Notes: generated by a model from the letters alone, not told the origin. 64,000 nt of DNA from an uncultured Gammaproteobacteria bacterium (GCA_964571225.1 CAZNBB010000002.1:7421-71420); one strand, 5' to 3'. Shown: positions 9,843 to 56,095, counted from the stretch's first letter. Numbers and translations are program-made.

Positions 9843-10330
9843 GCCCCTTCCACCTTTTCCAGACCCGCACGGGGACATGCCTGCAACAGGTCGTCCAGCG
9901 ATCCGCGCCCCGGAATCCGCAGGTGCGGTGCAATCTCCGCCAATGGGTAGAGCACGAATGCCCTCTCATGCATCCCCGGATGGGGCACGGTAAGACCGTC
10001 CTCGCCCAGTTCCAGATCTCCATACAGCAGCAGATCAAGATCCAGCGTACGGGGTCCCCAATGCCGGCCGCGCACACGCTTGTGGGCGGCTTCGATGGCC
10101 TGCAGATGCTTGAGCAGGGTCAGCGGCGGCAGAGTCGTGTCCAGCGCCGCCACCGCATTGATATAGTCGGGCTGGTCCGGCGGACCCATGGGCGGACTGC
10201 GGTACAGCGCCGATACCGGGCCCAAGCGGGTATTGGGCAGCGCATCCAGCGCCTGAAGTGCACGGCGCACCTGCGCCGCCGGATCCTGCAGATTGCTGCC
10301 CAGCCCGATATAAGCCCTGCTCAGGCTCAA
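9839..10330 (-). CDS. folK: 2-amino-4-hydroxy-6-hydroxymethyldihydropteridine pyrophosphokinase (HPPK)
   Basis: Conserved core from ...LSRAYIGLGSNL to DLDLLLYGD and HPGMHERAFVLYPL. There is no ATG, so the proposed start is the TTG at 10330, overlapping the pcnB stop codon (TTGA). This gives 163 aa. The track ORF up to 10738 is an overlap with pcnB. Confidence 0.75.
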   Translation of the reverse strand: MSLSRAYIGLGSNLQDPAAQVRRALQALDALPNTRLGPVSALYRSPPMGPPDQPDYINAVAALDTTLPPLTLLKHLQAIEAAHKRVRGRHWGPRTLDLDLLLYGDLELGEDGLTVPHPGMHERAFVLYPLAEIAPHLRIPGRGSLDDLLQACPRAGLEKVEGA

Positions 10331-11673
10331 CCGGCCGCCTCCCCGGAAGCCCGGCGCGGCGAACGCCGACGCCGGCGTTTGCGTGGCGCCCCGCCTTCGG
10401 TACGCCGATCCCGTTCCTCCGGTTCCAGGGTCTGGAATTCCGTCCACCACTGACAGAGTTCCTCCGGGACCTCGCCACTTTCGCCGCGCAGCAACAGGAA
10501 ATCGTAGGCGGCCCGAAAGCGCGGGTTGCCCAGCAGCCGCTGCGGGCGTTTGCCGGTGCGCTGTTCGAAACGGGGCTGCAGCGCCCAGATCTCGCGCATG
10601 GGCAGGCTGAACCGCTTGGGCAGCGAAACATGCCGGCATTGATCGCTCACGATCTGGCGGCCTGCCGACTGGATCGCCTGGGCTTCGGTCATGCCCTCCT
10701 CGCGGAAACGGGTCAGCCAACGGCTCATTGGAGCCCACAGCAGAGCCGCGAACAGGAACGCAGGCGTCACCGGTTTGTCCGCATTCACCCGCGCATCGGT
10801 GTTGGCAAGGGCCTTGGCAAGCAGCGTCTGGGGAAAGCCTTGCGTCTCCTGGGCAAGGGCCTCCTCGGTGAACGGGAACAGGTGATCGAACAGATCGTAA
10901 TGGCGCAGCAGCTCATAGCTCGGCAGGGCGGCACCGGACATGAACAGTTTGAGTATCTCCTCGTACAGGCGGGCCGGCGGCATTTCTCTCAGCAGGTGGC
11001 CCAGTTCCCAAAGCGGCCCCTCGCTGTCCGGATGGATACGAAAGCCCAGCTTGGCGGCAAAGCGTACGGCGCGCAGCATGCGCACCGGATCCTCGCGATA
11101 GCGGCGTTCCGGGTCGCCGATCAACCGCAGCACCCCGTCCTTGAGATCCGCCATGCCGCCGACGTAATCCACGACAGAGAAGTCGGCGATGTTGTAATAC
11201 AGGGCGTTGACGGTGAAGTCCCGCCTCCAGGCATCTTCCTCGAGGGTGCCGTAGACATTGTCGCGCAGGATGCGACCGTTCTCGATGCGCCGAGCCTGTC
11301 CGTCGTCTTCCTCTTCCTCGTCATCCTCGTCGGGCGCGTACAGGGCCCGGAAGGTGGCCACCTCGATCACTTCACGGCCGAACACCACGTGGGCCAGGCG
11401 GAAACGACGCCCGATCAGGCGGCAATTGCGAAACAGTTGCCGAACCTGCTCGGGATGGGCGTCGGTGCCCACGTCGAAATCCTTGGGCTCGCGCCCGAGC
11501 AGCAGATCGCGCACGCCGCCGCCCACCAGGTAGGCCTGGTAACCGGCGTTGTGGAGGCGATAGAGCACCTTGACCGCATTCGGGCTGATGCTGGCCCTCG
11601 AGATGGTGTGCTCGGGGCGCGCGATCACGGCGGGCTCGGCGGCATACTCCGGTGTCTTCTCTTCGCTGGTCAC
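10327..11673 (-). CDS. pcnB: Poly(A) polymerase I
   Basis: 448 aa. ...LVGGGVRDLLLGREPKDFDVGTDA (NTase motif) and RDFTVNALYY. Upstream of folK as in E. coli. Confidence 0.92.
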   Translation of the reverse strand: MTSEEKTPEYAAEPAVIARPEHTISRASISPNAVKVLYRLHNAGYQAYLVGGGVRDLLLGREPKDFDVGTDAHPEQVRQLFRNCRLIGRRFRLAHVVFGREVIEVATFRALYAPDEDDEEEEDDGQARRIENGRILRDNVYGTLEEDAWRRDFTVNALYYNIADFSVVDYVGGMADLKDGVLRLIGDPERRYREDPVRMLRAVRFAAKLGFRIHPDSEGPLWELGHLLREMPPARLYEEILKLFMSGAALPSYELLRHYDLFDHLFPFTEEALAQETQGFPQTLLAKALANTDARVNADKPVTPAFLFAALLWAPMSRWLTRFREEGMTEAQAIQSAGRQIVSDQCRHVSLPKRFSLPMREIWALQPRFEQRTGKRPQRLLGNPRFRAAYDFLLLRGESGEVPEELCQWWTEFQTLEPEERDRRTEGGAPRKRRRRRSPRRASGEAAG

Positions 11674-11752
11674 AGCGCTCCACTTGTGGAATCAAAACTG
11701 GCGCGTATAATACCATCCCTTCGATTCGCGTGCAGATCGCGGACCAGGCTTC

Positions 11753-11828
11753 GCTCCCATCGTCTAGCGGTCCAGGACGTCGCCCTCTCACGGCGAAAAC
11801 CGGGGTTCGATTCCCCGTGGGAGCGCCA
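11753..11828 (+). tRNA. tRNA-Glu (anticodon CUC)
   Basis: A 76-nt cloverleaf: GCTCCCA acceptor stem, anticodon loop CTCTCAC, GGTTCGATTCC T-arm and a 3' GCCA. Close to the E. coli tRNA-Glu scaffold. Confidence 0.85.
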
Positions 11829-12126
11829 TTCCCGCCGCTTCGGAAGCGCCCGGCGACCGACGTCCACATGGCGCCCCGGGCGCAGAACCACGGCCGGCAA
11901 TCCGGCCTCGGCCCACAGCCCTGCTTCCCCGCAACCCTATGGCGACATGTTGAGCCGGTTCACGTCGGTGGCAACCCGTCCCCTGAGAAGGGTACCGGAT
12001 ACCCGACTCGCGATCCGGCCACCACCGGCTAAAACCGGGGCTGGCTTGGGGGCTTCAACCGCCGGTACAATTCTCATTTTTGTCAGATCGCAGCCCGCCT
12101 TCAGGCCGGGCCGCCGGTGAACCGTA

Positions 12127-33563: not shown

Positions 33564-35009
33564 TCACCTTCCGCCGGCGCGCAGCTCCCGATGGGCGGTC
33601 AGCGCCTCCCGGCGGGTGAGATCGAAGTCCACCACCCTCGGCGCGTAATCCGCGGCATCCCACGCCCGGTCCCGGCGCCCCGCCTCCGCGCCGACCCACG
33701 GCTGGTGCACCCAACGGTCAGGCACATGGGCCAGCTCGGGCAGCCAGCGACGTACGTACGCCCCTTCGGAGTCGAAACGTTCACCCTGGCGTATGGGGCT
33801 GAAGATTCGAAAATAGGGTGCCGCGTCCACACCCGTGCCGGCGACCCACTGCCAGCCCAGGGAGTTGTTGGCGAGGTCGGCATCCACCAGCGTGTCCCAG
33901 AACCAACGGGCGCCTTCCTGCCAGGGTACGCGGCAGTTCTTGACCAGGAAGGAAGCGGCCAGCATGCGGGCCCGGTTGTGCATCCAGCCGGTGTGCCACA
34001 GCTCGCGCATGCCCGCGTCCACCATGGGGTACCCGGTGCGACCCTGCTGCCAGCGACGCAGCAGGTCGCCGTAACCGGTACGCCAGGGAAACCGGTCAAA
34101 GCGTCGATCCATGGAGCGGCGGTCCGTATCGGGCCAGTGGTGCAGGACATAGGCGGCGAATTCCCGCCAAGCCAGCTGGCGCAGGAAGCTCTCGGCGCCC
34201 GTCCGTCCAGCCGCGCCGCCCCCCTCGCCGATTGCCTGTACAGCGTGCCAGAGTTGACGGGGCGAGAGCTCGCCGAAGTGCAGATAGGGCGAGAGCCCGG
34301 ATACGCCGTCGGTCCCCGGCCAGTCACGGGCGGTTGGGTAATGCTCAAGGTCCTGGTCACAAAAGGCGGCCAGCCGCCGGTTGGCGGCATCCTCTCCCGC
34401 CTCCCAGCGGGCCTCCAGGCCGTCGGCCCAGGCATGCCCGGGAGCAAGCTCCAACTCCCGCAGTACCGAACCCGGCGGCCAGCGGTCCGGGGCTGGGATA
34501 CGCTTTGGTGCAGGCATAGCGGACGCTACGCTGAGTCGGGCATACCAGGCCTTCCAATAGGCGGAAAATACCCGATAGGGCGTGCCGGCCTGGCTCAGCA
34601 CGGCATCGGGCTCGACCAGCAGTGCGCCCCGGCAGGTAACCACCCGCGCGCCGTCGGCCTCCAGAGCCGCCGCCACTCGCGCGTCGCGGGCGGCGACCCC
34701 GGGTTCGTAGGCTCGCTGCCAGTACACGGCCGTCGCGCCTATGGACCGGCGCAGCGCCTGCAAGGCTTCCAGGGAAGGGCCGCGGCGAACCACCAGGCGC
34801 GACTTCCGACCTTCGAGACGGCGCGCGAACCGCTCCAGGCTGCGGTCCAGCCACCAGCGGCTGGCGGCGCCGGGCTCCCAAGGCGATTCTTCTTCCGGTG
34901 CATGGATATACACCGGCACCACCGCGTCGTGGGCGGCAAGAGCGGCGCTGAGCGCCGGGTGATCCGCCAACCGCAGATCACGTCGGAACCAGACGATGGC
35001 AGTGCTCAA
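33564..35009 (-). CDS. phr: Deoxyribodipyrimidine photolyase (CPD photolyase)
   Basis: ...STAIVWFRRDLRLADHPAL..., TGYPMVDAGMRELWHTGWMHNRARM and NNSLGWQWVAGTGVDAAPYFRIFSP (FAD-binding). The proposed start is the TTG at 35009 (MSTAIVWF), giving about 481 aa. The 778-aa track ORF is an N-terminal overrun into hemH. Confidence 0.85.
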   Translation of the reverse strand: MSTAIVWFRRDLRLADHPALSAALAAHDAVVPVYIHAPEEESPWEPGAASRWWLDRSLERFARRLEGRKSRLVVRRGPSLEALQALRRSIGATAVYWQRAYEPGVAARDARVAAALEADGARVVTCRGALLVEPDAVLSQAGTPYRVFSAYWKAWYARLSVASAMPAPKRIPAPDRWPPGSVLRELELAPGHAWADGLEARWEAGEDAANRRLAAFCDQDLEHYPTARDWPGTDGVSGLSPYLHFGELSPRQLWHAVQAIGEGGGAAGRTGAESFLRQLAWREFAAYVLHHWPDTDRRSMDRRFDRFPWRTGYGDLLRRWQQGRTGYPMVDAGMRELWHTGWMHNRARMLAASFLVKNCRVPWQEGARWFWDTLVDADLANNSLGWQWVAGTGVDAAPYFRIFSPIRQGERFDSEGAYVRRWLPELAHVPDRWVHQPWVGAEAGRRDRAWDAADYAPRVVDFDLTRREALTAHRELRAGGR

Positions 35010-35120
35010 GGTTTTCCCGGCAAACGGATTGCTGACCAGCAGCAAGAATGAACGACCCTTGGGCACCGGGCAAGTGCGTTCGTTATACTGAACCGCGTCG
35101 TTCCAACGCAGGCAGCAGAC

Positions 35121-36230
35121 ATGACTCAATACCAGGGCGAAGCCGCCTACGAACACGGCAGCGGTTCCTGCACCGGCGTGTTGGTGACCAATCTGGGGAC
35201 CCCGGACGCTCCCACGGCGACGGCGCTGCGCCGCTATCTGGCGCAGTTCCTGTGGGATCCGCGGGTGGTCGAGTTCCCGCGGCCTCTGTGGTGGCTGATC
35301 CTGCGCATCATCCTGCGGATACGCCCGCGCCGGGCGGCCCGCAGTTACGCGCGGGTATGGACCGAAGAGGGCTCGCCGCTGCTGGTCATCTCCCGCCGCC
35401 AGGCCGCCGCCCTGCAGACAGCGCTGCAGGAACGCTTCGGCGGCCCCGTGGAAGTCGTCCTGGGAATGCGTTACGGCCGTCCTTCCATCCGGGCGGCCAT
35501 GGAGCAACTGCGCAGTCGCGGAGCACGGCGGCTGCTGGTGCTGCCGTTGTACCCCCAGTACTCGGCCGCCACCACAGCGTCCACCTTCGACGCGGTGGCC
35601 GACGTGCTGAAATCGTGGCGGTGGATACCCGAACTGCGCTTCGTTCAGCATTATCCCGACGATCCCGGCTACATTGCCGCCCTGGCTGCCAGCATCCGGG
35701 AACATTGGGCCGAGCATGGGCAGGCCGACCGGCTGCTGTTCTCCTTCCACGGCGTGCCCAAGCGCTACCTGCACGCGGGCGACCCTTATCATTGCGAATG
35801 TCAGCGCACCGCCCGCCTGCTGGCCGAGGCCCTGGAGCTGCCGGATACCAGCTGGCAGGCCACCTTTCAATCCCGCTTCGGACGGGAGGAGTGGCTGCAA
35901 CCGTACACCGACGAGACCCTCAAGAGCCTGCCGGGACAGGGTGTACGTTCAGTCCAGGTCGTTTGCCCGGGATTCAGCGCCGACTGCCTGGAAACCCTGG
36001 AGGAGATCGCCGAACAGAACCGGGATTTCTTTCTCGCCGCGGGCGGCGAGCGCTACGAATACATCCCCGCCCTGAACGACCGCCCCGACCATATCGACGC
36101 CTTGACGCAACTGGTGGCGCGCCACACCGGCGGCTGGCCGGAAGGCGGCGCGGACTGGTCCGAACACGCCGACCGCGAGTCGCGGGAAGCGAGTCGCCGC
36201 AGCGCCCTGGCGGCCGGCGCCGCGCGCTGA
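35121..36230 (+). CDS. hemH: Ferrochelatase
   Basis: 369 aa. ...GVLVTNLGTPDAPT...LVLPLYPQYSAATT...FSFHGVP. Divergent from phr. Confidence 0.9.
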   Translation: MTQYQGEAAYEHGSGSCTGVLVTNLGTPDAPTATALRRYLAQFLWDPRVVEFPRPLWWLILRIILRIRPRRAARSYARVWTEEGSPLLVISRRQAAALQTALQERFGGPVEVVLGMRYGRPSIRAAMEQLRSRGARRLLVLPLYPQYSAATTASTFDAVADVLKSWRWIPELRFVQHYPDDPGYIAALAASIREHWAEHGQADRLLFSFHGVPKRYLHAGDPYHCECQRTARLLAEALELPDTSWQATFQSRFGREEWLQPYTDETLKSLPGQGVRSVQVVCPGFSADCLETLEEIAEQNRDFFLAAGGERYEYIPALNDRPDHIDALTQLVARHTGGWPEGGADWSEHADRESREASRRSALAAGAAR

Positions 36231-46341: not shown

Positions 46342-47892
46342 TCACACGTCCCCGAGCTGCGGGTGTTCCCTGTCCACCCGCTGCAGGATCTTGTTCAGAG
46401 CATTGATATAGGCCTTGGCCGACGCGATGACGATATCGGTGTCGGCGCCCTGGCCGTTGACGATGCGGCCGCCCTTTTCGAGCCGCACCGTAACCTCGCC
46501 CTGGGAATCCGTGCCCGAGGTGATGTTGTTCACGGAATATAACAGCAGGGTCGATCCGCTGTCGGCAATCGCCTCGATAGCCTTGAAGGTGGCATCCACC
46601 GGTCCGCTGCCGGGCGCGCTGGCACCCTTTTCCTCGCCGTCCACCCACAGGGTCATATCGGCCCGGGGCTGCTCGCCGGTCTCGGAGCACACCCGCATGG
46701 CCACCAGCTTGATGCGCTCGTTCTCCTGGGCGATGTCGAGTTCGGTGACCAGGGCCTGCAGGTCCTCGTCATAGATCTCGTGCTTCTTGTCGGCCAGGTC
46801 CTTGAAGCGTGTGAACGCCGCGTTGAGGTCCTCCTCGGCGGCAAAGGTCACGCCCAGTTCCGCCAGTCGGGTGCGGAACGCGTTGCGCCCTGAATGCTTG
46901 CCCAGCACCATGCGGTTGGTGGCCCAGCCCACGTCCTCGGCACGCATGATCTCGTAGGTCTCGCGACTCTTGAGCACCCCGTCCTGGTGGATCCCGGATT
47001 CATGGGCGAAGGCGTTGGCCCCCACGATGGCCTTGTTGGGCTGCACCGCAAAACCGGTGATGCCGGAGACCAGCCGGGAGCAGGGCACGATCTGTGTGGT
47101 GTCCAGGTCCACGTCGCAAGGCACGATGTCCCGGCGGGTGCGCACGGTCATGACGATCTCTTCCAGGGCCGCATTGCCGGCCCGTTCGCCCAGGCCGTTG
47201 ATGGTGCATTCCACCTGCCGCGCACCGTTCATGACCGCCGACAGGGAGTTGGCCACCGCCAGACCGAGATCGTTATGACAGTGCACGGAGAATACCGCCT
47301 TGTCGGCGTTTGGAATGCGCTCGCGCAGGGTACGGATGAGGCCGCCGAACTGCTCGGGGACGTTGTAGCCGACGGTATCGGGGATGTTCACGGTGCCGGC
47401 GCCGGCGTCGATCACCGCCTCGAGGATACGGCACAGAAAGTCGATCTCGGAACGCCCCGCATCCTCGGGCGAGAACTCCACGTCGTCCGTGAGCTGACGG
47501 GCCTGACGCACAGCCCGCACCGCCTGCTCCAGAACCTGGTCGGGCTCCATGCGCAGCTTCATCTTCATGTGGATGGGCGAGGTGGCGATGAAGGTATGGA
47601 TGCGTGCGCGCTCGGCGTCCCGCAACGCCTCGCCGGCCCGGGCGATGTCCTTGTCCAGGGCCCGCGCCAGACCGCAGACCGTGCTGTCCTTGACCACGCG
47701 GGCCACCGCCTGGACGGCTTCGAAGTCACCGACGCTGGCAATGGGGAAACCCGCCTCGATCACGTCCACGCGCATGCGCTCAAGCGCCTTGGCGATGCGG
47801 ATCTTCTCATCCTTGGTCATGGACGCACCGGGACTCTGCTCGCCGTCCCGCAACGTCGTGTCAAAGATAATCAGTTTGTCTTTTTCGCTCAT
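46342..47892 (-). CDS. leuA: 2-isopropylmalate synthase
   Basis: 516 aa. ...[19 protein letters not shown]...[13 protein letters not shown]... Confidence 0.93.
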
Positions 47893-48100
47893 GCCCTCGC
47901 TCCGCTCGGCCGTGGTCCGGCACCCCCGACGGGCGCACCGTCACACCGGGCATCAGGATATCAAAGCAACCCGCTTTGTGCTCGCCGACCCGGGTCCGGC
48001 GACGGTGCCGACCCCACGGCTTCCCAAGGGGAGCTATTTCCGCGCCGCAGGGGGAACCCGGGGGACCCCGGGGCGCCGCCCCCCGCCAGCGCCCCCAACA

Positions 48101-48127
48101 ACGCAAAAAGGCGCCCGCAGGCGCCTT
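48101..48127 (-). terminator. Rho-independent terminator oriented for the minus strand, downstream of the 48154..49362 gene
   Basis: An 8-bp stem (AAGGCGCC/GGCGCCTT) with a CGCA loop, followed on the minus strand by TTTTTGCGTTGTT. Confidence 0.65.
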
Positions 48128-48153
48128 CGCGAATCGCAACGGGAGCGCAGCGG

Positions 48154-49362
48154 CTACTGAATTCCGCCGGGTGCCGCACCCTTGCCGGCAAGAAACACAT
48201 CCGTCTGGCGCACATTGTCCCCGTTCATCACGGTGTGGATATCCACGGTTCCCCCAAGAGCGCCCGCGTTCTTGCCGAAGAAGGCGCCCTGCACCTTGCC
48301 GGTCAGGCCGTCGCTCAGCTTGTTCGACACCACATTCGCTCCGGAAATGGTACCGGACGCGGTGAATGCCACCTGCCCCACCAGATAGTCGCCGTTGCTG
48401 AGGTGCTCGATATGGGCGCCGGAGGTATCCAGGGCGCCTGTGGAGTGGCCCCAGGAGCCGTTCCAGGTACCGTGGCCGAAATCCACCGTGATCGCCACCG
48501 GGGTGCCGTTTGCCAGCATGCTGCCTCCGTAGCTGGCCTGCACATCGCCGGCCTGCAGCTTGTCCAAGTCGAGTTGGGAGGTCGTGATGCCGGTCACGAA
48601 CTGGCCGGACCCGCCGGTGTGGTCGGGGGTGCGGTTGTAGATGATGTTGTCCACGGTCGCAAGCACGGAATAGGCGACATAACGAAGTGTGCCGTCGGAC
48701 CAGGTCCCGGCCACCACATCGGGGTTCGCCGCATAGGGCAGTACACCGCTGACCTCGGATTTGTGGTCGAATCGTTCCGCCGGCGTCGCGGGCCCCAGCG
48801 CCCGATGAAAAGTGGTCTGGGTGGCACTGCCCACCATGGCATTCGCGGCCGTCTGGCCGACCGACAGGTTCTGCACCGACACCTGGGGGTACGCGCTGTC
48901 GCCGGGGTTGGTCGGGGTCACGACATAGGAGGCGCTCTGCCCTTCGGCGCCGTTGGTGGCGGCCGCCACCAAGGCCGCCACGGTGGTCTCGAAGCTGGCC
49001 GGCACCGGCCCGCCGTGATAGCCCTGCGCCCCGGTCTCGGTCTCGCTGTTTGCGGCCACATAGCCCGCGTCGCGCGCGTAAGTGGCAAAGCCGCAAGCCG
49101 CTCCGGCGACGCAGGGGCCCTGCACCGTGATGGTCGGCTTCTGGACCTGGGGCGTGTTCTCGCTGTTGCGCGGCGTGTTCTGTGTGGAAAGGTTCAGCAG
49201 CGCCACCGGGTGACCGCCTGCGGCGGGAGCCAGCACCGCCCAAGGCCCCCAGGAGTAGACGGAATCGTCATCGTGGGCCTTGTGCGTGGTGTTGGCGGCC
49301 ACCGGGCCGGCAGCCAGAGCAAAGGCGATGCCGGCTGCCAGCACGCTCCTGGAACGGGTCAT
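48154..49362 (-). CDS. Secreted protein with a TbpB/HpuA-type (lipoprotein-5-like) C-terminal beta-barrel; putative Slam-dependent cargo, hemophore-like
   Basis: Signal peptide MTRSRSVLAAGIAFALAAGPVAA with no lipobox Cys. The C-terminus matches the TbpB-fold signature block by block: ASYGGS, AITVDFGHGTWNG, YLVGQVAFTASGTISGANVV, GKVQGAFFGKNAGALGGTV, DVFLAGKG. SD GGAGGAG before the ATG at 49362. Confidence 0.65.
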   Translation of the reverse strand: MTRSRSVLAAGIAFALAAGPVAANTTHKAHDDDSVYSWGPWAVLAPAAGGHPVALLNLSTQNTPRNSENTPQVQKPTITVQGPCVAGAACGFATYARDAGYVAANSETETGAQGYHGGPVPASFETTVAALVAAATNGAEGQSASYVVTPTNPGDSAYPQVSVQNLSVGQTAANAMVGSATQTTFHRALGPATPAERFDHKSEVSGVLPYAANPDVVAGTWSDGTLRYVAYSVLATVDNIIYNRTPDHTGGSGQFVTGITTSQLDLDKLQAGDVQASYGGSMLANGTPVAITVDFGHGTWNGSWGHSTGALDTSGAHIEHLSNGDYLVGQVAFTASGTISGANVVSNKLSDGLTGKVQGAFFGKNAGALGGTVDIHTVMNGDNVRQTDVFLAGKGAAPGGIQ

Positions 49363-49651
49363 GTTTGTCTCCTCCGAGGGATCGCCGGCCACCTACGCCG
49401 GCAGGCTTTCGACTGCTTAAGCAATCGCTGTGCCACAGCTTTTATGGGTAATAAATACAGCCAGTTAGCTATATAAACAAACGCACCGCCTTCGGCATTG
49501 TAAATTAATTCGACTCGCCTGCCGGAGCAGGAATGGAGCAACAGACTGAAAAGTCCGGAAAATACTTAGCTTGCTCGTGATCGCATGCAATGTTGCGCCG
49601 GATATCGATGTAAATAATTCCGACGAGCGCCGTCCCATCCCTTTGCTTGGA

Positions 49652-50980
49652 TTAGAAATTCCGTGACAGGCTCAGGCTTACCTGGTGCCGTCGGTAGCGA
49701 TACACCGCATCATTGGAGCGATTGTCCGTGTAACGGAAGACACCGTTGATGGACCACTTCTCCAGTCGCCCGGTGGTGAATCGATGCTTGAATCCGATGG
49801 TCGCCTCGCGTTCCTGCTCGTCGCGCACCACACCCAGGGTGTCGACGCCGTCGTATTTGAGATCGTTGTAGTACAGACGGCCATAGATCGTACCGCCGCT
49901 CCAGGCATGCACGAACGCGGCCAGGTAACCGCCCGGACCGGTGTAGCCGAACTGATTGTCGTCGGCCGAGAAGTCGTACCAGTCCACGCCGCCCTGGATC
50001 GCCACCTTACGCTCGTTGAAATAATGGGCGTAGGAGACGCCCGCGCGTCGATACAGCCCGTCGCGCCCGCCGTTGCCCCCCTGAATGGTGGGTCTGTCGT
50101 CCCGGTAGCTGCGCTTGGACAGGGTACCGTCCAAGGACACCTCCGCATCCTTGAACTGCCAGGTGACGCGCGGATTGAGGGAGCTGAACAACGCCAGGCC
50201 ATGCCCCCCGAGCCATACATAGTCGAGTTGAACCGGCAGCGCGGCACGCCAGTGACGCAGCACCACCCACGCCGGCCCGGTACTGGCGCTCAGTACGCTG
50301 AGATCGAAGGCGTGTTGCTGGAAGTAGGAACGCTGATAGGCGTCCAGTTCACTCTGCCAGAGGAACTGTCCCACCTGCTGCCCGGCGCGAAAGCGCTTGC
50401 CGGGTTGATAGCGATGCACAACGCCGGCGGAGAGCACCACTGCGGTGTCGCTCTTGGGCAGCGAACTGGGCAGCACCGTCAGAAGCTGGCCCTGATAGGG
50501 CACAATGTCGCTGATGGGACCGATGTTCACATTGGAGTCGTACATGGTGCCGACCGAAACGAACGGCGTGAACCGGCTGGGTACGTCCAGCTTCTTCTGG
50601 TCCTCGTTGACCTGGGCCAGGAACGCCAGAATGCTCACCCGCACATTGGGCGGCACATGGGGATCCTTGAGCACCCTTTCGGCCGCCTTGCGTGCCTTGT
50701 CGTAATCGAGTGCACGGTAATAGGCGACGGCCAGTTCCAGACGTGCCCGATGCAGGTCGGGGGCATTGCTCAGGATCTGCTGGAACGCCTCGATGGCGGA
50801 AAACAGCTGGTCGCTGCGCAATGCCTTCATGCCTTTCTCGAACAGGATCTGATTGGGATCCTGGCTGGCGTCTGTCGGCTCGGCGGCTGCCGCCTGCCAG
50901 GATGCCAGCCCGATCAGCAAGGCCACGAACGCAGGGATCACGCGGCTGCGCACAGCCAGAATTTTTCTTATTGGTGACAT
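49652..50980 (-). CDS. Outer-membrane protein with an N-terminal TPR region plus a C-terminal beta-barrel: Slam-like (surface lipoprotein assembly modulator, DUF560-type architecture)
   Basis: 442 aa from the ATG at 50980: signal peptide MSPIRKILAVRSRVIPAFVALLIGLASWQAAAA, a TPR-like helical region (AYYRALDYDKARKAAERVL), then about 300 aa of alternating beta-strand pattern ending ...VSLSLSRNF with a terminal Phe. The 748-aa track ORF is an artefactual fusion with the antisense of the BTLCP gene. Confidence 0.6.
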   Translation of the reverse strand: MSPIRKILAVRSRVIPAFVALLIGLASWQAAAAEPTDASQDPNQILFEKGMKALRSDQLFSAIEAFQQILSNAPDLHRARLELAVAYYRALDYDKARKAAERVLKDPHVPPNVRVSILAFLAQVNEDQKKLDVPSRFTPFVSVGTMYDSNVNIGPISDIVPYQGQLLTVLPSSLPKSDTAVVLSAGVVHRYQPGKRFRAGQQVGQFLWQSELDAYQRSYFQQHAFDLSVLSASTGPAWVVLRHWRAALPVQLDYVWLGGHGLALFSSLNPRVTWQFKDAEVSLDGTLSKRSYRDDRPTIQGGNGGRDGLYRRAGVSYAHYFNERKVAIQGGVDWYDFSADDNQFGYTGPGGYLAAFVHAWSGGTIYGRLYYNDLKYDGVDTLGVVRDEQEREATIGFKHRFTTGRLEKWSINGVFRYTDNRSNDAVYRYRRHQVSLSLSRNF

Positions 50981-51205
50981 TTGTGCTATCCGTCCCGGCG
51001 TCAGCGCGCCGATTTTTCTTTGTCTTGAGCCTTCTCGGGGCCACGTGGCGTACATGATAGAGGTTGCCGGCATTCTCCACAATCGGCCTGTGCCGAACCG
51101 GACCCACGGTTGGCGGTCTATCTGCGAGCTGATAGACTCCGGCCAAAACCGGCCGCAGGACATGACATTACGATGCCTGCGGTGGAGAACGAACCCAGAG
51201 GCTCG

Positions 51206-51859
51206 ATGACACGTCGACTCCTTCTGCTGCTGTCGCTGTTGATCGGTTGTCTGGTCCCCCTGACCGGTACCGCCCGCGCTTCCGCCCAACCCGACACCCT
51301 GTTCGGCTACCGGGGAACCGAAGAAACCGGCGTACGGGTCTTCCATCAATGGGTCAGGGTTCTGGAACGTCATATCCGCGATGACGTGCCGGAAGGCGAC
51401 TGCAGCGAACGACGCCTCAACACCTGTCATTTGCGGCACTGGTACGCTTTTCTGCGCTCGATCCGCAAGCTTCCCAAACTGGAACAGATCCGGCGGGTCA
51501 ACACCTTCGCGAACAACGTCAGGTATGTGCTGGACATCGACAACTACGGCGTTCCGGACTACTGGGCGGACGCCAAGGAATTTCTCTACAATGGCGGCGA
51601 CTGCGAGGACTACGCCATCACCAAGCTGTTCTCCCTGCGATGGCTGGGTTTTCCTCCCAGTTCGGTGCGTCTGGTGGTGCTTCAGGACACCAATCTGCGC
51701 GTAGCCCATGCGGTGCTCGCCGTCTATCTGCATGGCAAGACGTACATCCTGGACAACCAGACGCAGCAGGTCGTGACGGACACGCAGATCGTGCATTACG
51801 TACCGGTGTATGCGATCAACGAGAACCACTGGTGGCTGTATACGCCGCCACCCTCCTGA
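51206..51859 (+). CDS. Periplasmic transglutaminase-like cysteine proteinase (BTLCP, LapG-like)
   Basis: Signal peptide MTRRLLLLLSLLIGCLVPLTGTARA and a catalytic triad context GGDCEDYAITK (Cys), AHAVLAVY (His), ILDNQ (Asp), matching PF06035-type proteins. Confidence 0.75.
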   Translation: MTRRLLLLLSLLIGCLVPLTGTARASAQPDTLFGYRGTEETGVRVFHQWVRVLERHIRDDVPEGDCSERRLNTCHLRHWYAFLRSIRKLPKLEQIRRVNTFANNVRYVLDIDNYGVPDYWADAKEFLYNGGDCEDYAITKLFSLRWLGFPPSSVRLVVLQDTNLRVAHAVLAVYLHGKTYILDNQTQQVVTDTQIVHYVPVYAINENHWWLYTPPPS

Positions 51860-51931
51860 CGAGGTCCGCTCTATGCCCGATATCAACGCCTTCGCCATGT
51901 CCGCTGCAGGTTCCCGCAGCCGGCATCATTC

Positions 51932-54022
51932 ATGAGTCGCGGCCTTCGCAACCCCGCTGTGGCGGGCGGCGCAATCCTGCTGCTGCTGGTCGCCGCCGGC
52001 GTGGCCGCCGTACTCTGGTACGTCTCACTGGAACAGCAACGGGACCTGCATGACTGGCAGATCCGTCTCGGCCTGATCGCCGACAGCCGCGCTGACGCCG
52101 TCGACCGCTGGGTGACTACACAGTTCGACGCACTGCAGGAACTGGCGGACAACGCCTCCCTGCAGATGTACGCCACCCAGTTGGAGTTGCAACCCAAGCT
52201 GCAGAGCGACAACGTCGAGCCCGCCCAGCTCAGCTACCTGCGCAGCCTGATCATCGCCACCGCCCAGCGCAGGGGCTTCATCGACCCAAGCCCGCTCAGT
52301 ACCGTCATCCGGGCCAACGTACCCGGTCACAGCGACGCCGGACTGGCCCTGCTCGATCCGGGCGGCAAGCTGCTGGTGGCCACACCCGGCATGCCCGCGC
52401 TGGACAAGGGCTACCGGGCCGCCGCCCGGCGGGCCGTGGAGACCGGGCAGCGAACAGTTCGCGACATTCATCTGAACGCGGCCGGAACCCCGGTCATGGG
52501 CTTCGTCGTCCCGGTCTACGCCGTACAGGGAGCACAACAGGGCCGCACCGCCCATGCGATCGCTGTGATCCTCGGGGTGAAGAACGTACAAAGCAGCCTC
52601 TATCCGCTGATCCGCAGTCACAACCTGCTCACGGACCAGGACCAGACTCTGCTGGTGCGCCGCGAGGGCAATTCGGTGGTCTATCTGAGTCCGCTGGAGG
52701 ACAGCAGCCGTCCCACGTCGCGGCGGCTCGCCCTGAATAACCCGGACCTGGCGGCGGCGTTTGCGCTCCAGCACCCGGGCGCGTTCGCGCGACTGCACAA
52801 CTATCAGGGTACGGACGTACTGATGACCAGCCGCCAGCTGAGCGCGGCCCCGTGGGTGCTGGTCCAGGAAGCCGGCGCCGCGCCCGCTCTGAAGGAATCG
52901 AACGATCACCGGCGCTTTCTGCTGACCGCCCTGCTGCTGACCATCTTTCTGGTCGCCGCCAGCCTGGTGGCGGCCTGGCGTCACGGCACCAGTGTGCGCG
53001 CTCTGACCATGGCGGAACACCTGCGTACGACGTCCCGCGAGTTGGAAGTACGCACCGCGCTGCTGCATGCGATCACCGACAACGTCACCGACCACATCTA
53101 TCTCGCGGACCCGCAGCAGCATTTCATATTCGCCAACGGCTCCCTGGCACAGGTCACCGGATTGGCCGGCGGGGACTTCGCCGGCAAATCCCTCACCAGC
53201 GTGCTGGGGCCAGAGACAGCGAAGAGACTGTCCGATTTTGCGGACCAGGCGCTGCAGGACAATCATCCGGTGGTGGTTACCCGCTCGTTGGATCTGGGCG
53301 ACGGCAGCCGGGTGTTCCACTGCGCTTTCATTCCACTGGCACACGTGAACGGCCTGGAGCGTACCGTACTGACCGTGCTGCACGACATCACGGATCTTCA
53401 GCAGGCGCAGATCAAACGCTCGGCGCTGCTGCGCCAGTTGATCATCACCCTGGTACGGGTCGTGGACATGCACGATCCCTATTCCGCCAATCACTCGGCG
53501 CGCATGGCGGAGGTGGCGCTGGCGGTGGGACGGTCCATGCTGCTGAGCCAGACGGAGCTTGAGACCCTGGAACTGGCAGCGCAGCTGGCGAATCTTGGAA
53601 AGATCTTCGTTCCCAAGGAAATACTCACCAAGACCGGCGCTCTCACCGAGGCCGACCAGGAGGTCCTCAAGAAGCATGTCCAGTACACACTGGACATGCT
53701 CTCCGGAATCGACTTCGACGGACCGGTACTGGAAACCATCGCCCAGAAGCAGGAGCACTGCGATGGCAGCGGCTATCCGAAGGGACTGATTGGGGACGAG
53801 ATGCTGCTGACCGCGAAGATACTGGCCGTGGCCAACGCCTTCGTCGCCATGGTCAGCCCGCGCGCCTATCGCGACGCCGTGTCGGTGGACGCAGCCCTGG
53901 ACCGGCTGTTGGCCGACAGTCACAGCCGCTACGATCGCCATGTGGTCGCCGCGCTGTTCCACGTGGCCGAGAACCGGTCCGACTGGTCAACATGGCCGAA
54001 GATACAGCCGCCGGAAGCCTAG
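51932..54022 (+). CDS. Membrane-bound HD-GYP phosphodiesterase with a large periplasmic sensor domain and a cytoplasmic PAS-like region
   Basis: TM1 (AILLLLVAAGVAAVLWYV), a periplasmic domain of about 300 aa, TM2 (FLLTALLLTIFLVAASLVAAW), a PAS-like segment, then HD...HCDGSGYPKGL (HD-GYP). 696 aa. Confidence 0.8.
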   Translation: MSRGLRNPAVAGGAILLLLVAAGVAAVLWYVSLEQQRDLHDWQIRLGLIADSRADAVDRWVTTQFDALQELADNASLQMYATQLELQPKLQSDNVEPAQLSYLRSLIIATAQRRGFIDPSPLSTVIRANVPGHSDAGLALLDPGGKLLVATPGMPALDKGYRAAARRAVETGQRTVRDIHLNAAGTPVMGFVVPVYAVQGAQQGRTAHAIAVILGVKNVQSSLYPLIRSHNLLTDQDQTLLVRREGNSVVYLSPLEDSSRPTSRRLALNNPDLAAAFALQHPGAFARLHNYQGTDVLMTSRQLSAAPWVLVQEAGAAPALKESNDHRRFLLTALLLTIFLVAASLVAAWRHGTSVRALTMAEHLRTTSRELEVRTALLHAITDNVTDHIYLADPQQHFIFANGSLAQVTGLAGGDFAGKSLTSVLGPETAKRLSDFADQALQDNHPVVVTRSLDLGDGSRVFHCAFIPLAHVNGLERTVLTVLHDITDLQQAQIKRSALLRQLIITLVRVVDMHDPYSANHSARMAEVALAVGRSMLLSQTELETLELAAQLANLGKIFVPKEILTKTGALTEADQEVLKKHVQYTLDMLSGIDFDGPVLETIAQKQEHCDGSGYPKGLIGDEMLLTAKILAVANAFVAMVSPRAYRDAVSVDAALDRLLADSHSRYDRHVVAALFHVAENRSDWSTWPKIQPPEA

Positions 54023-54072
54023 TGGTCGGCGCGACGATAGGTAGGGAAGAAGCCGGAAACGAAAGCCCCGCT

Positions 54073-54867
54073 CTAACCCGGCCCGCCGCCGCTGCGGTTG
54101 GCCCGCTCCCTGCGGCGTTTGCGCAATCCCGAAAGGGTTAGAACAGGCCCGGAGAGGGCATAGATCAGAAAGACCGAAAACAGCACCTTGGGCGGATCCA
54201 CGGAAGTCAGCACGAACACCAGCACTACCAGCAGCACTGCCACGAAGGGCACGCGATCGCGGAAGTCGATTTCCTTGAAGCTGTAGTAACGGATATTGCT
54301 CACCATCAGCAGGCCCATCAGCACGGTCAGCACAAAGCCCGGAGCGATCATCTCCGCACCCGGAATCTTCATGTCGGAACCCACCCACACCAGACCGGCC
54401 AGCACGGCGGCCGCCGACGGGCTGGGCAATCCCTGGAAGTAGCGTTTGTCGGCGGTACCGACCTGAGTATTGAAGCGCGCCAGGCGCAGGGCAGCGCCGG
54501 CGGCGTAGATGAAAGCGGCGAGCCAGCCCAGCTTGGCCCAGGCCCAACCGAATCCCGACATGTCCCGCAGGGCCCATTCGTAGATGACCAACGACGGAGC
54601 CAGACCGAAGCACACCAGATCGGACAGACTGTCGTACTGGACCCCGAAATCGCTCTGGGTATTGGTCAGGCGGGCAACGCGGCCGTCCAGGCCGTCCATG
54701 AGCATGGCCACGAAAATGGCAATGGCGGCCGGACCGAAATGGTCGCTCATGGCCGCGACGATGGCGTAGAAGCCCGCGAACAGCCCTGCCGTGGTGAGCA
54801 GGTTGGGAAGCAGGTAGATGCCTTTGCGGCGTCTGGGCTCTGGGCTTTCCGTTTCCGGATCGGACAT
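54073..54867 (-). CDS. pssA: CDP-diacylglycerol--serine O-phosphatidyltransferase (CDP-alcohol phosphatidyltransferase type)
   Basis: 264 aa. ...DGLDGRVAR...GVQYDSLSD... (the CDP-OH transferase motif D-G-x2-A-R...G-x3-D-x3-D). Confidence 0.85.
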   Translation of the reverse strand: MSDPETESPEPRRRKGIYLLPNLLTTAGLFAGFYAIVAAMSDHFGPAAIAIFVAMLMDGLDGRVARLTNTQSDFGVQYDSLSDLVCFGLAPSLVIYEWALRDMSGFGWAWAKLGWLAAFIYAAGAALRLARFNTQVGTADKRYFQGLPSPSAAAVLAGLVWVGSDMKIPGAEMIAPGFVLTVLMGLLMVSNIRYYSFKEIDFRDRVPFVAVLLVVLVFVLTSVDPPKVLFSVFLIYALSGPVLTLSGLRKRRRERANRSGGGPG

Positions 54868-54958
54868 GATCGCTTGCCGTCGCTACCGCGGGGAACTGCT
54901 GTGGGCTGACCCGTCGGCCGGTGGCCGCTTCGCTCGGAAGCGGCCACCGGCCCAGGGC

Positions 54959-56095
<1,137 letters not shown>

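What the first reader, a model, noticed from the sequence alone, without database searches (positions are those of the whole stretch)
51206..54022. LapG-like periplasmic cysteine protease paired with a membrane HD-GYP phosphodiesterase instead of a GGDEF-EAL LapD-type receptor
BTLCP/LapG proteases (the Cys-His-Asp context is present here) are normally partnered with LapD-like inner-membrane c-di-GMP receptors. These sequester the protease and control release of a surface adhesin or other cargo. Here the downstream gene encodes a two-TM protein with a roughly 300-aa periplasmic domain, a PAS-like segment and an intact HD-GYP catalytic domain. That would couple a periplasmic protease partner directly to c-di-GMP hydrolysis rather than to c-di-GMP binding. 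The pair is transcribed divergently from the Slam-like gene. That raises the possibility, by inference only, that the BTLCP processes the Slam-exported protein or another surface substrate. No RTX/LapA-like giant adhesin is present in the window.
Basis: partly seen in the sequence, partly recalled or inferred. Interest (0 to 1): 0.7.

Follow-up and report, generated by a model that had tools for sequence, protein, structure and literature searches.

The report
c-di-GMP protease switch beside Slam exporter
The gene pair is real, but the membrane protein is a non-enzymatic cyclic-di-GMP sensor that probably controls the neighbouring protease, and this known kind of switch sits here beside a Slam-type outer-membrane exporter whose small cargo carries the protease's cleavage motif, a pairing I found described in no paper.

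Summary
A BTLCP protease gene (51206-51859) is followed by a gene for a two-TM, periplasmic-domain, PAS, HD-GYP protein (51932-54022), divergent from a Slam-like OMP gene.

The HD-GYP domain is not intact: HD reads AN, HH reads KQ, and the last Asp is Asn. The same losses occur in all 121 close homologues and in 114 distant ones. The cytoplasmic half matches Desulfovibrio DvhD (PDB 9rc0, E 7e-50). The modelled periplasmic dCache domain matches DvhD's (9rc2) best in the PDB. This is therefore a DvhD/DvhG-type c-di-GMP receptor plus protease, a kind published in 2024-2026.

What appears new is the partner:
- The receptor gene follows the BTLCP gene in 72/72 loci.
- A Slam-like OMP gene is adjacent in 66/74 loci, including loci with unrelated flanks.
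- In 43/46 loci the gene next to the OMP encodes a secreted protein with a near-N-terminal motif DSVYxWGxW-x5-PAAG. This fits the LapG/DvhG cleavage consensus [T/A/P]AAG. In the window it lies at 49216-49266.

No T1SS or giant adhesin is nearby. The likely function is c-di-GMP-gated proteolytic release or maturation of a Slam/T11SS cargo. All evidence is computational.

The parts
48154..49362 (-). Candidate cargo and protease substrate. It is a 402-aa secreted protein with a signal peptide but no lipobox Cys. It has an N-terminal cleavage-type motif, a CxAGAxCGFAT loop and a weak C-terminal TbpB/Slam-cargo-like beta-barrel.
   Evidence: Pfam TbpB_B_D scores 27.0 bits (cut-off 26). NCBIfam slam_lipo gives E 5e-7, below its cut-off. 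In the alignment of 20 long homologues, W38 G39 W41 A47 A48 C84 G87 C90 G91 are invariant. The AF2 model failed (pLDDT 27.8).
49216..49266 (-). Motif DSVYSWGPWAVLAPAAG (residues 33-49). PAAG fits the LapG/DvhG cleavage consensus [T/A/P]AAG. The predicted scissile bond is A47|A48 (49219-49224).
   Evidence: Translation verified. The regex W[GA].W.{4,7}P[AS][AS] hits 45 of 2410 ORFs in 90 loci. Every hit lies next to the Slam-like gene, or next to the BTLCP gene where Slam is absent. Position counts: P 42/43, A 43/43, A 41/43, G 37/43.
49652..50980 (-). Slam/T11SS-like outer-membrane protein of 442 aa: signal peptide, N-terminal TPR and C-terminal barrel.
   Evidence: In the window protein, TPR_Slam gives E 2.7e-6 and SlipAM scores 22.2 bits (cut-off 22). 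Among 30 orthologues, TPR_Slam matches 30/30 and SlipAM 17/30. Start MSPIRK verified.
50981..51205 (.). Divergent intergenic region between the Slam-like gene and the BTLCP gene; presumed to hold both promoters.
   Evidence: Gene coordinates. No sigma-70 consensus site was found.
51206..51859 (+). Periplasmic BTLCP cysteine protease of the LapG/DvhG type, 217 aa. Catalytic C133 (51602-51604), H168, D183; Ca-site D132/E134/D135.
51932..54022 (+). DvhD-like inner-membrane c-di-GMP receptor of 696 aa: TM1, dCache, TM2, PAS, degenerate HD-GYP.
   Evidence: PDB 9rc0/9rbz (DvhD PAS/HD-GYP) match at E 7e-50 and 2e-42. It lies immediately downstream of the BTLCP gene in 72/72 loci.
52025..52915 (+). 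Periplasmic double-Cache (dCache) domain, residues 32-328.
   Evidence: AF2 pLDDT 89.9. The best Foldseek match in the PDB is 9rc2, 'DvhD, periplasmic domain' (E 1.9e-12, TM 0.75). The next dCache match has E 1.4e-8. Pfam dCache_1 is weak (E 0.0026). There is no LapD_MoxY_N hit.
53057..53401 (+). Cytoplasmic PAS domain.
   Evidence: PAS_4 E 7.7e-13, residues 383-489.
53450..53944 (+). Degenerate HD-GYP domain. HD reads AN (53588-53593), HH reads KQ (53747-53752), the last Asp reads N635 (53834-53836). GYP is retained (53771-53779).

Best explanation
The pair is a DvhD/DvhG-type (Lap-like) 'inside-out' c-di-GMP switch.

Proposed steps:
1. The 696-aa protein is a receptor, not an enzyme. Its degenerate HD-GYP domain binds c-di-GMP (inferred).
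2. The signal passes through the PAS domain and the membrane helices to the periplasmic dCache domain (inferred).
3. At high c-di-GMP the dCache domain restrains the periplasmic BTLCP protease (inferred by homology to DvhD).
4. At low c-di-GMP the protease is free (inferred).

Unlike Lap and Dvh systems, the module is not wired to a T1SS giant adhesin. It sits beside a Slam/T11SS-like outer-membrane protein and the small secreted protein encoded next to that protein.

That secreted protein carries a conserved near-N-terminal tag, DSVYxWGxW-x5-PA|AG. I propose this is the protease's docking and cleavage site. Cleavage would remove the N-terminal ~23 residues of the mature window protein. This would release the Slam-handled cargo from the cell envelope, or otherwise mature it.

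Shown by computation: the domain anatomy, the degeneracy, the fold match and the synteny statistics. Inferred only: c-di-GMP binding, protease control, cleavage at PAAG, Slam-dependent export and the direction of the effect.
For: Receptor identity:
- Sequence match to DvhD PAS/HD-GYP (9rc0, E 7e-50).
- The modelled periplasmic domain matches DvhD's dCache (9rc2) best in the whole PDB.

Loss of catalysis:
- HD reads AN, HH reads KQ and the last Asp reads N when aligned to PmGH, V-cGAP3 and PA4781.
- In 121 homologues: A 110, N 117; K 115, Q 103; N 121/121.
- In 114 representatives at 50% identity or less, the aligned column counts show no intact HD.
- DvhD (SQ and MN at the same sites) binds c-di-GMP with Kd ~0.3 uM and does not hydrolyse it (PMC10990149, PMC13090378).

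c-di-GMP contacts of DvhD kept here: Y523 is Y517, L577 is L, Y621 is Y615, M646 is M640, R650 is R644 (121/121) and Y652 is Y646.

Protease: intact Cys-His-Asp triad and Ca site.

Linkage:
- The receptor gene follows the BTLCP gene in 72/72 loci.
- A Slam-like OMP gene is adjacent in 66/74 loci.
- The module keeps together in loci whose flanks are unrelated to leuA/pssA (L007, L008, L009).

Substrate:
- The motif protein is adjacent to the OMP gene in 43/46 loci. The motif occurs nowhere else among 2410 ORFs.
- It stays next to the BTLCP gene where the Slam gene is missing (L001, L057).
- It is also present in AT-rich loci such as L023, so it is not a G+C artefact.
- PAAG fits the experimentally defined [T/A/P]AAG site with a di-Ala scissile bond (PMC13090378).
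Against: - There is no biochemical evidence of any kind.
- Two DvhD phosphate or bridging-site contacts differ: K582 is Q, R569 is E, and K520 is H.
- The NCBIfam LapG equivalog score is far below its cut-off (88.8 vs 320).
- Slam membership is marginal by curated thresholds (SlipAM 22.2 vs 22; TPR_Slam 28.2 vs 35.2).
- Many cargo versions are only 100-150 aa and have no recognisable Slam-cargo barrel.
- The piece removed from the window protein (~23 aa) is too small to act as a LapA-type plug. The retention mechanism is therefore unexplained.
- The 'DP' turn of LapG substrates is not evident.
- The cargo structure could not be modelled, and no complex modelling was possible.
- Substrates elsewhere in the genome cannot be excluded from a 64-kb window.
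Confidence: 0.62

Rival explanations
1. First reader's model. The HD-GYP protein is an active c-di-GMP phosphodiesterase. Its activity is linked to the periplasmic protease, so the protease partner is coupled to c-di-GMP hydrolysis rather than binding.
For: The HD_5 domain hit is strong (E 1.5e-41). The GYP motif, H521 and H582 are retained.
Against: The HD, HH and final Asp metal ligands are all replaced, and the replacements are conserved across the family. The closest characterised homologue, DvhD, carries equivalent substitutions, binds no metal and shows no hydrolysis in vitro (PMC13090378).
Confidence: 0.03
2. The pair is an ordinary Lap/Dvh-type regulator of a T1SS giant adhesin encoded elsewhere in the genome. 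The adjacency to the Slam-like gene is inherited synteny without a functional link, and the PAAG motif serves another purpose.
For: All characterised BTLCPs act on large adhesins (T1SS LapA/DvhA; T5bSS CdrA; PMC13090378, PMC4694147). Many loci share the leuA...pssA-ilv context, which suggests vertical inheritance. The window covers only 64 kb.
Against: The OMP, motif-protein, BTLCP and receptor genes stay together in loci with unrelated flanks and in a rearranged order (L032, L056, L059, L064). The motif is the most conserved part of an otherwise fast-evolving protein (~30% identity). It matches the protease's known consensus and tracks the BTLCP gene even without Slam. No T1SS or adhesin gene lies within 10 kb in any of about 90 loci annotated with my HMMs.
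Confidence: 0.1
3. Same components, opposite logic. Cleavage at PAAG is a maturation or licensing step, such as removal of an N-terminal pro-peptide or tether. It would be needed before Slam-dependent export or before assembly with the VPLPA-CTERM protein, rather than releasing an already displayed protein.
For: The segment removed is short (17-25 aa in most versions), unlike a folded retention module. Long versions carry two PAAG sites flanking small Cys-containing segments. A VPLPA-CTERM/PEP-CTERM-tailed protein (19/30 loci) and a YcbB-like L,D-transpeptidase (9/25 loci) often accompany the module, which hints at envelope assembly.
Against: There is no precedent for a BTLCP acting as a pro-protein convertase. 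In Lap, Dvh and CdrA systems, cleavage releases the protein from the cell.
Confidence: 0.2
4. The dCache domain is a conventional small-molecule sensor signalling inward, and the BTLCP gene is an unrelated neighbour.
For: The fold is a generic dCache, shared with chemoreceptors and kinases.
Against: The adjacency holds in 72/72 loci, frequently with 4-bp overlaps. The output domain is catalytically dead, so inward signalling would have no enzymatic output. The best structural match is DvhD's protease-controlling dCache.
Confidence: 0.04

Closest known systems
DvhD/DvhG (DVU1020/DVU1019) of Desulfovibrio vulgaris Hildenborough (Karbelkar et al. 2024, PMC10990149; Font et al. 2026, PMC13090378)
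   Same: A BTLCP protease gene is followed by a gene for a TM-dCache-TM-PAS-degenerate-HD-GYP c-di-GMP receptor. The same metal-ligand positions are lost. The cytoplasmic half is clearly homologous (E 7e-50). The periplasmic fold is the best PDB match. The candidate substrate has a [T/A/P]AAG-type site.
   Different: The Dvh operon encodes a T1SS and a giant RTX-type adhesin with a folded N-terminal retention domain. Here the neighbours are a Slam/T11SS-like OMP and a 100-430-aa protein with a short N-terminal tag. The periplasmic domains share only ~15% identity. The lineage is Gammaproteobacteria (Thiohalobacter, Methylococcales and relatives), not Desulfovibrionales. The protease has a plain signal peptide, not the TM anchor of DvhG.
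LapD/LapG/LapA of Pseudomonas fluorescens
   Same: The logic is the same: a degenerate c-di-GMP-turnover domain acts as receptor, signals inside-out, and controls a periplasmic Ca-dependent BTLCP that cuts at a di-alanine.
   Different: There is no LapD_MoxY_N, HAMP, GGDEF or EAL domain, no T1SS and no giant adhesin. The LapG equivalog model scores 88.8 against a cut-off of 320.
CdrA/CdrB with LapG of Pseudomonas aeruginosa (PMC4694147)
   Same: This is the precedent that a LapG-type protease can control a cargo of a secretion route other than T1SS (two-partner secretion).
   Different: The transporter family differs (T5b vs Slam/T11SS). The receptor there is the canonical LapD.
Slam / type 11 secretion systems (Hooda 2017, PMC5449769; Grossman 2021, PMC8406197; Grossman 2025, PMC12282271)
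   Same: The OMP combines an N-terminal TPR with a DUF560-type barrel. The cargo gene is adjacent. The window cargo has a weak TbpB-like C-terminal barrel and lacks a lipobox, like hemophilin-type secreted cargo.
   Different: The OMP is a very divergent member with marginal scores. Many cargos lack the barrel. The T11SS papers I searched do not mention a protease, c-di-GMP or an HD-GYP partner.

Membership tests
DvhD-type c-di-GMP receptor | Two TM helices flanking a periplasmic dCache domain | tested here: met
   AF2 pLDDT 89.9. The best PDB hit is 9rc2, the DvhD periplasmic domain (E 1.9e-12). Pfam dCache_1 is weak.
DvhD-type c-di-GMP receptor | Cytoplasmic PAS plus HD-GYP homologous to DvhD | tested here: met
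   9rc0 E 7.3e-50 over residues 376-677.
DvhD-type c-di-GMP receptor | Metal-coordinating HD and HH motifs replaced (non-catalytic) | tested here: met
   AN, KQ and N635 in the window protein; conserved in 121 close and 114 distant homologues.
DvhD-type c-di-GMP receptor | Canonical-site c-di-GMP contact residues conserved | tested here: inconclusive
   Six of eight are kept (Y, L, Y, M, R, Y) and E668 is D. K582 is Q. At the bridging site P567 is kept but K520 is H and R569 is E.
DvhD-type c-di-GMP receptor | Encoded immediately next to a BTLCP protease gene | tested here: met
   72/72 loci.
DvhD-type c-di-GMP receptor | Binds but does not hydrolyse c-di-GMP | not testable with these tools
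   Needs ITC and HPLC assays.
Dvh/Lap adhesin-control system | Operon or neighbourhood with a T1SS and a giant adhesin bearing an N-terminal retention module | tested here: not met
   The largest window ORF is 973 aa and is housekeeping. No such genes appear in the loci.
LapG/DvhG BTLCP proteases | Peptidase_C93 fold with a Cys-His-Asp triad and a flanking Ca-binding D-C-E-D motif | tested here: met
LapG/DvhG BTLCP proteases | NCBIfam LapG equivalog score | tested here: not met
   88.8 bits against a cut-off of 320. This is a separate subfamily.
LapG/DvhG BTLCP proteases | Cognate substrate with a [T/A/P]AAG site preceded by hydrophobic docking residues | tested here: met
   The candidate carries YxWGxW-x5-PAAG and is conserved in 43/46 loci. 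Cleavage itself was not tested.
LapD | LapD_MoxY_N periplasmic domain, HAMP, degenerate GGDEF-EAL | tested here: not met
   No such Pfam hits.
Active HD-GYP phosphodiesterases | Complete H...HD...H...HH...D metal site | tested here: not met
Slam / T11SS outer-membrane proteins | N-terminal Slam-type TPR plus C-terminal DUF560 (SlipAM) barrel | tested here: inconclusive
   In the window protein, TPR_Slam scores 28.2 (cut-off 35.2) and SlipAM 22.2 (cut-off 22). Among orthologues, 30/30 and 17/30 match at E<0.01.
Slam / T11SS outer-membrane proteins | Adjacent cargo with a C-terminal TbpB-like beta-barrel | tested here: inconclusive
   In the window cargo, TbpB_B_D scores 27.0 (cut-off 26). Among long cargos, TbpB_B_D matches 3/20 and slam_lipo 6/20. 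Short cargos lack the barrel. The AF2 model failed.
Slam / T11SS outer-membrane proteins | Cargo export depends on the OMP | not testable with these tools
   Needs co-expression and surface-exposure assays.

The most novel reading that the evidence does not exclude
A widespread gammaproteobacterial module in which a DvhD-type c-di-GMP receptor and its BTLCP protease gate a Slam/type-11-secretion cargo through a short portable N-terminal tag (DSVYxWGxW-x5-PA|AG). About 177-508 clusters at 50% identity share the receptor's periplasmic domain. This would make T11SS the third secretion route, after T1SS and T5bSS, under Lap-type proteolytic control. The tag would possibly be held by the OMP's periplasmic TPR domain rather than by a folded plug.
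Probability: 0.55. Interest if true: 0.8.

Novelty: new variant of a known kind. Interest (0 to 1): 0.7.

Why it matters
Lap-type switches are the best-understood way bacteria turn intracellular c-di-GMP into a cell-surface change. So far they are tied to giant adhesins exported by T1SS, with one T5bSS case. If this reading holds, three things follow.

1. DvhD-type HD-GYP receptors are not a Desulfovibrio peculiarity. They form a large, old family in sulfur-oxidising and methanotrophic Gammaproteobacteria.
2. Slam/T11SS cargo can be placed under second-messenger control. No T11SS study that I searched reports this.
3. A 17-residue tag may be enough to make a protein a BTLCP substrate. That would help in predicting substrates and in engineering releasable surface display.

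The module is present in a cultured organism with a complete genome, Thiohalobacter thiocyanaticus (AP018052). The hypothesis is therefore directly testable.

Tried and rejected
- **Genome scan.** The survey therefore rests on metagenome contigs and 8 exact-protein look-ups.
- **Cargo model.** The AF2 model of the 402-aa cargo, built from 9 sequences, failed (pLDDT 27.8). It was not used, and no fold search was run on it.
- **Cargo homologues.** A profile of 20 cargos against PDB sequences found nothing. The homologue search for the cargo found only 8 proteins.
- **Promoters.** The sigma-70 promoter scan of 47800-54200 found nothing.
- **Lipoprotein idea.** I considered that the BTLCP is a lipoprotein, because the window sequence reads LLIGC. 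The Cys is not conserved in 45 homologues, so I rejected this.
- **VPLPA tail as second site.** I considered that the VPLPAAxW tail of the accompanying protein is a second di-Ala cleavage site. The di-Ala is not conserved there (variants PGA and PLP), and the tail matches the VPLPA-CTERM sorting domain, so I rejected this.
I rejected the reading of MHDPYS as the catalytic motif.
- **Literature.** Searches for Slam/DUF560/T11SS together with transglutaminase, c-di-GMP, HD-GYP or LapG found nothing. Galperin & Chou 2022 on HD-GYP diversity could not be read.
Full report
**1. What is in the window**

The region 43.4-60.4 kb holds these genes:
- prfC, rimI, a UDG gene and leuA on the minus strand.
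- A 402-aa secreted protein, 48154-49362(-).
- A 442-aa outer-membrane protein, 49652-50980(-).
- After a 225-bp divergent gap, a 217-aa BTLCP, 51206-51859(+).
- A 696-aa membrane protein, 51932-54022(+).
- pssA, ilvC, ilvH and ilvI on the minus strand.

**2. The protease**

- It matches Pfam Peptidase_C93 (E 9e-17).
- It aligns to the two solved LapG proteins (4fgo and 4u65, E ~1e-17).
- In 45 homologues the Ca/catalytic motif D132-C133-E134-D135, H168 and D183 are invariant, as are two further cysteines, C66 and C74.
- It belongs to a tight subfamily of 55-65% identity, with 1953 hits.
- It falls far below the NCBIfam LapG equivalog threshold (88.8 vs 320 bits).
- The N-termini are hydrophobic signal-like segments without a conserved lipobox.

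**3. The 'HD-GYP' protein is a degenerate receptor of the DvhD type**

The best matches among solved structures are 9rc0 and 9rbz, 'HD domain/sensory box protein' (E 7e-50 and 2e-42). These are the PAS/HD-GYP fragments of Desulfovibrio vulgaris DvhD (PMC13090378).

I aligned the domain to the active enzymes PmGH (4mcw), V-cGAP3 (5z7c) and PA4781 (4r8z). The name-giving HD reads A553-N554. The HH of the HHE motif reads K606-Q607. The last Asp ligand reads N635. H521, H582 and the GYP motif remain.

The substitutions are not decay, because they are conserved:
- In 121 homologues: A 110 and N 117; K 115 and Q 103; N 121/121.
- In 114 full-length representatives at 50% identity or less, the aligned column counts show no intact HD. 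The D position is N in 107/115, and the last Asp is N in 103/115.

DvhD carries SQ and MN at the same places. It binds no metal, does not hydrolyse c-di-GMP, and binds it with a Kd of about 0.3 uM (PMC13090378, PMC10990149). Most of DvhD's canonical-site contacts are kept here: Y517, L, Y615, M640, R644 (121/121) and Y646. K582 is Q, and two bridging-site residues differ.

**4. The periplasmic domain**

- Pfam gives only a weak dCache_1 hit and no LapD_MoxY_N hit.
- An AF2 model of residues 32-328, built from a 51-sequence alignment, is confident (pLDDT 89.9).
- Its best match in the whole PDB is 9rc2, 'DvhD, periplasmic domain' (E 1.9e-12, TM 0.75).
- Generic dCache sensors follow, four orders of magnitude weaker.
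- Both halves of the protein therefore point to DvhD.
- The domain alone finds 177 clusters at E<=1e-30 and 508 at E<=1e-10 among 1.84 billion representatives. Nearly all of the 150 listed hits are ~690-720 aa.

**5. Linkage**

I assembled 90 loci from eight exact-protein look-ups and one metagenome scan seeded with the BTLCP alignment. I annotated them with HMMs built from the window and five seed loci. Two later look-ups (L090, L091) fit the same pattern.

- The receptor gene lies immediately downstream of the BTLCP gene in 72/72 loci with enough sequence. The two genes often overlap by 4 bp.
- A Slam-like OMP gene is divergent upstream in 62/74 loci, and downstream on the same strand in 4/74.
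- Of the other eight loci, three have the cargo gene but no OMP gene. Five are cut before the region where the downstream arrangement would show.
- Many loci share the leuA...pssA-ilv frame. L007, L008 and L009 have entirely different flanks yet keep the module. This argues for function rather than inherited synteny.

**6. The OMP**

TPR_Slam matches 30/30 orthologues and SlipAM (DUF560) matches 17/30 at E<0.01. The window protein scores 28.2 and 22.2 bits, against cut-offs of 35.2 and 22. It is a divergent Slam/T11SS-like protein, and its membership is marginal by curated thresholds.

**7. The cargo and its tag**

The gene next to the OMP gene always encodes a signal-peptide protein of 100-430 aa. 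These proteins evolve fast (~30% identity) but share a near-N-terminal motif, (D)S(V)YxWGxW-x5-PAAG.

- A regex for the motif hits 45 of 2410 ORFs. Every hit is the gene beside the Slam-like gene, or beside the BTLCP gene where the OMP is absent.
- The motif protein is present in 43/46 loci with at least 700 bp beyond the OMP gene. One of the three exceptions, L014, instead has a gene there that resembles a transposase on my reading; no family search was run on it.
- Around the di-alanine: [LIV] at -3 in 42/43, P at -1 in 42/43, A in 43/43, A in 41/43 and G in 37/43.
- The motif is equally present in AT-rich loci, so it is not a composition effect.

PAAG fits the experimentally defined LapG/DvhG site [T/A/P]AAG, which is cut between the alanines and preceded by hydrophobic docking residues (PMC13090378).

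In the window the motif is DSVYSWGPWAVLAPAAG, at 49216-49266. Cleavage would remove about 23 residues from the mature protein.

Long versions, including the window's, add a CxAGAxCGFAT loop and a C-terminal domain that weakly matches TbpB_B_D and slam_lipo. Some have an extra N-terminal Cys-containing helical segment followed by a first PAAG.

**8. Accessory genes**

A protein ending in a VPLPA-CTERM/PEP-CTERM-type tail occurs in 19/30 loci. A YcbB/LdtD-like L,D-transpeptidase occurs in 9/25. Neither is in the window.

**9. What is absent**

No ORF in the window exceeds 973 aa. The large ORFs encode PEP carboxylase, ValRS, a hybrid kinase and a photolyase. No T1SS or adhesin gene appears in the annotated loci.

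**10. Mechanism proposed**

At high c-di-GMP the degenerate HD-GYP dimer binds the nucleotide. The PAS and TM helices transmit the change, and the dCache domain restrains the BTLCP. At low c-di-GMP the BTLCP cuts PA|AG in the Slam-associated protein.

The direction (release versus maturation) and the way the short tag retains the protein are inferences. One possibility is docking of the tag to the OMP's TPR domain.

**11. Comparison with what is known, and novelty**

The connection to a Slam/T11SS-like exporter and a short-tag cargo is not in the Dvh papers. It is also not in the T11SS papers I could search. I therefore rate it a new variant of a known kind.

Thiohalobacter thiocyanaticus (AP018052) carries the full module, including the tag protein (…EEDSVYSWGRWEVLAPAAGG…). 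It offers an experimental entry point.

**12. Limits**

- Everything here is computational.
- The survey is biased towards relatives of the query BTLCP.
- Slam and cargo-barrel assignments are weak.
- No complex modelling was possible.
- The cargo model failed.

Noticed in passing
L002:6602-7210, L004:6521-7141, L007:5926-6495, L023:7066-7722, L044:5028-5699, L090:4490-5092 (no counterpart in the window): A 190-290-aa secreted protein ending in VP[LVI]P[AG]AxWL...GL...RR[KR] usually follows the tag protein. The tail matches the VPLPA-CTERM sorting domain (TIGR03370 above cut-off in 3 of 5 tested) and weakly matches the flocculation-associated PEP-CTERM protein PepA. No exosortase gene was seen in the loci.
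   Followed up: partly
L002:5251-6468, L004:4944-6440, L007:4372-5886, L008:4359-5531, L009:3997-5547: A YcbB/LdtD-like L,D-transpeptidase (Scaffold, PG_binding_1 and YkuD domains; PRK10594 E 1e-69) closes the module in 9 of 25 loci with enough sequence. This raises the possibility of a peptidoglycan link for one of the module's proteins. It is absent from the window.
   Followed up: partly
L002:7280-8437, L004:7177-8316, L007:6623-7855, L008:6568-7698, L009:6247-7350: Longer cargo versions carry an extra N-terminal segment, ERDCxEILxRWAADPxSVPxxLVDxCKE, with two conserved Cys. It is followed by a first PAAG (for example DIKPAAG) upstream of the CWGPW...PAAG site. These versions thus have two candidate cleavage sites and a possible disulfide-stabilised retention element.
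   Followed up: no
L014:1641-2339 and L014:1-368: In one locus the position next to the Slam-like gene holds ORFs that look like transposase genes (my reading of the translations; no family search was run) instead of the tag protein. This looks like a disrupted module.
   Followed up: no
window 54867-54959: In L001, L002, L004 and L090 a small phosphatidylserine decarboxylase gene (PS_Dcarbxylase, ~205 aa) lies between pssA and ilvC. In the window pssA (54073-54867) is followed directly by ilvC (54959-55981).
   Followed up: no
window 48114-48133(-) and 49622-49639(-): Terminator-like hairpins lie just after the cargo gene and between the Slam-like gene and the cargo gene. None lies between the BTLCP gene and the receptor gene (72-bp gap).
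   Followed up: no
window 33564-35900(-): The photolyase ORF is 778 aa, but its Pfam domains start only at residue ~301. Either the ORF is over-extended in this G+C-rich DNA or it has an unassigned N-terminal extension.
   Followed up: no
window 10258-12120(+): A 620-aa ORF has no Pfam match at E<=1e-5. It may be a spurious ORF in G+C-rich sequence or an unannotated protein.
   Followed up: no
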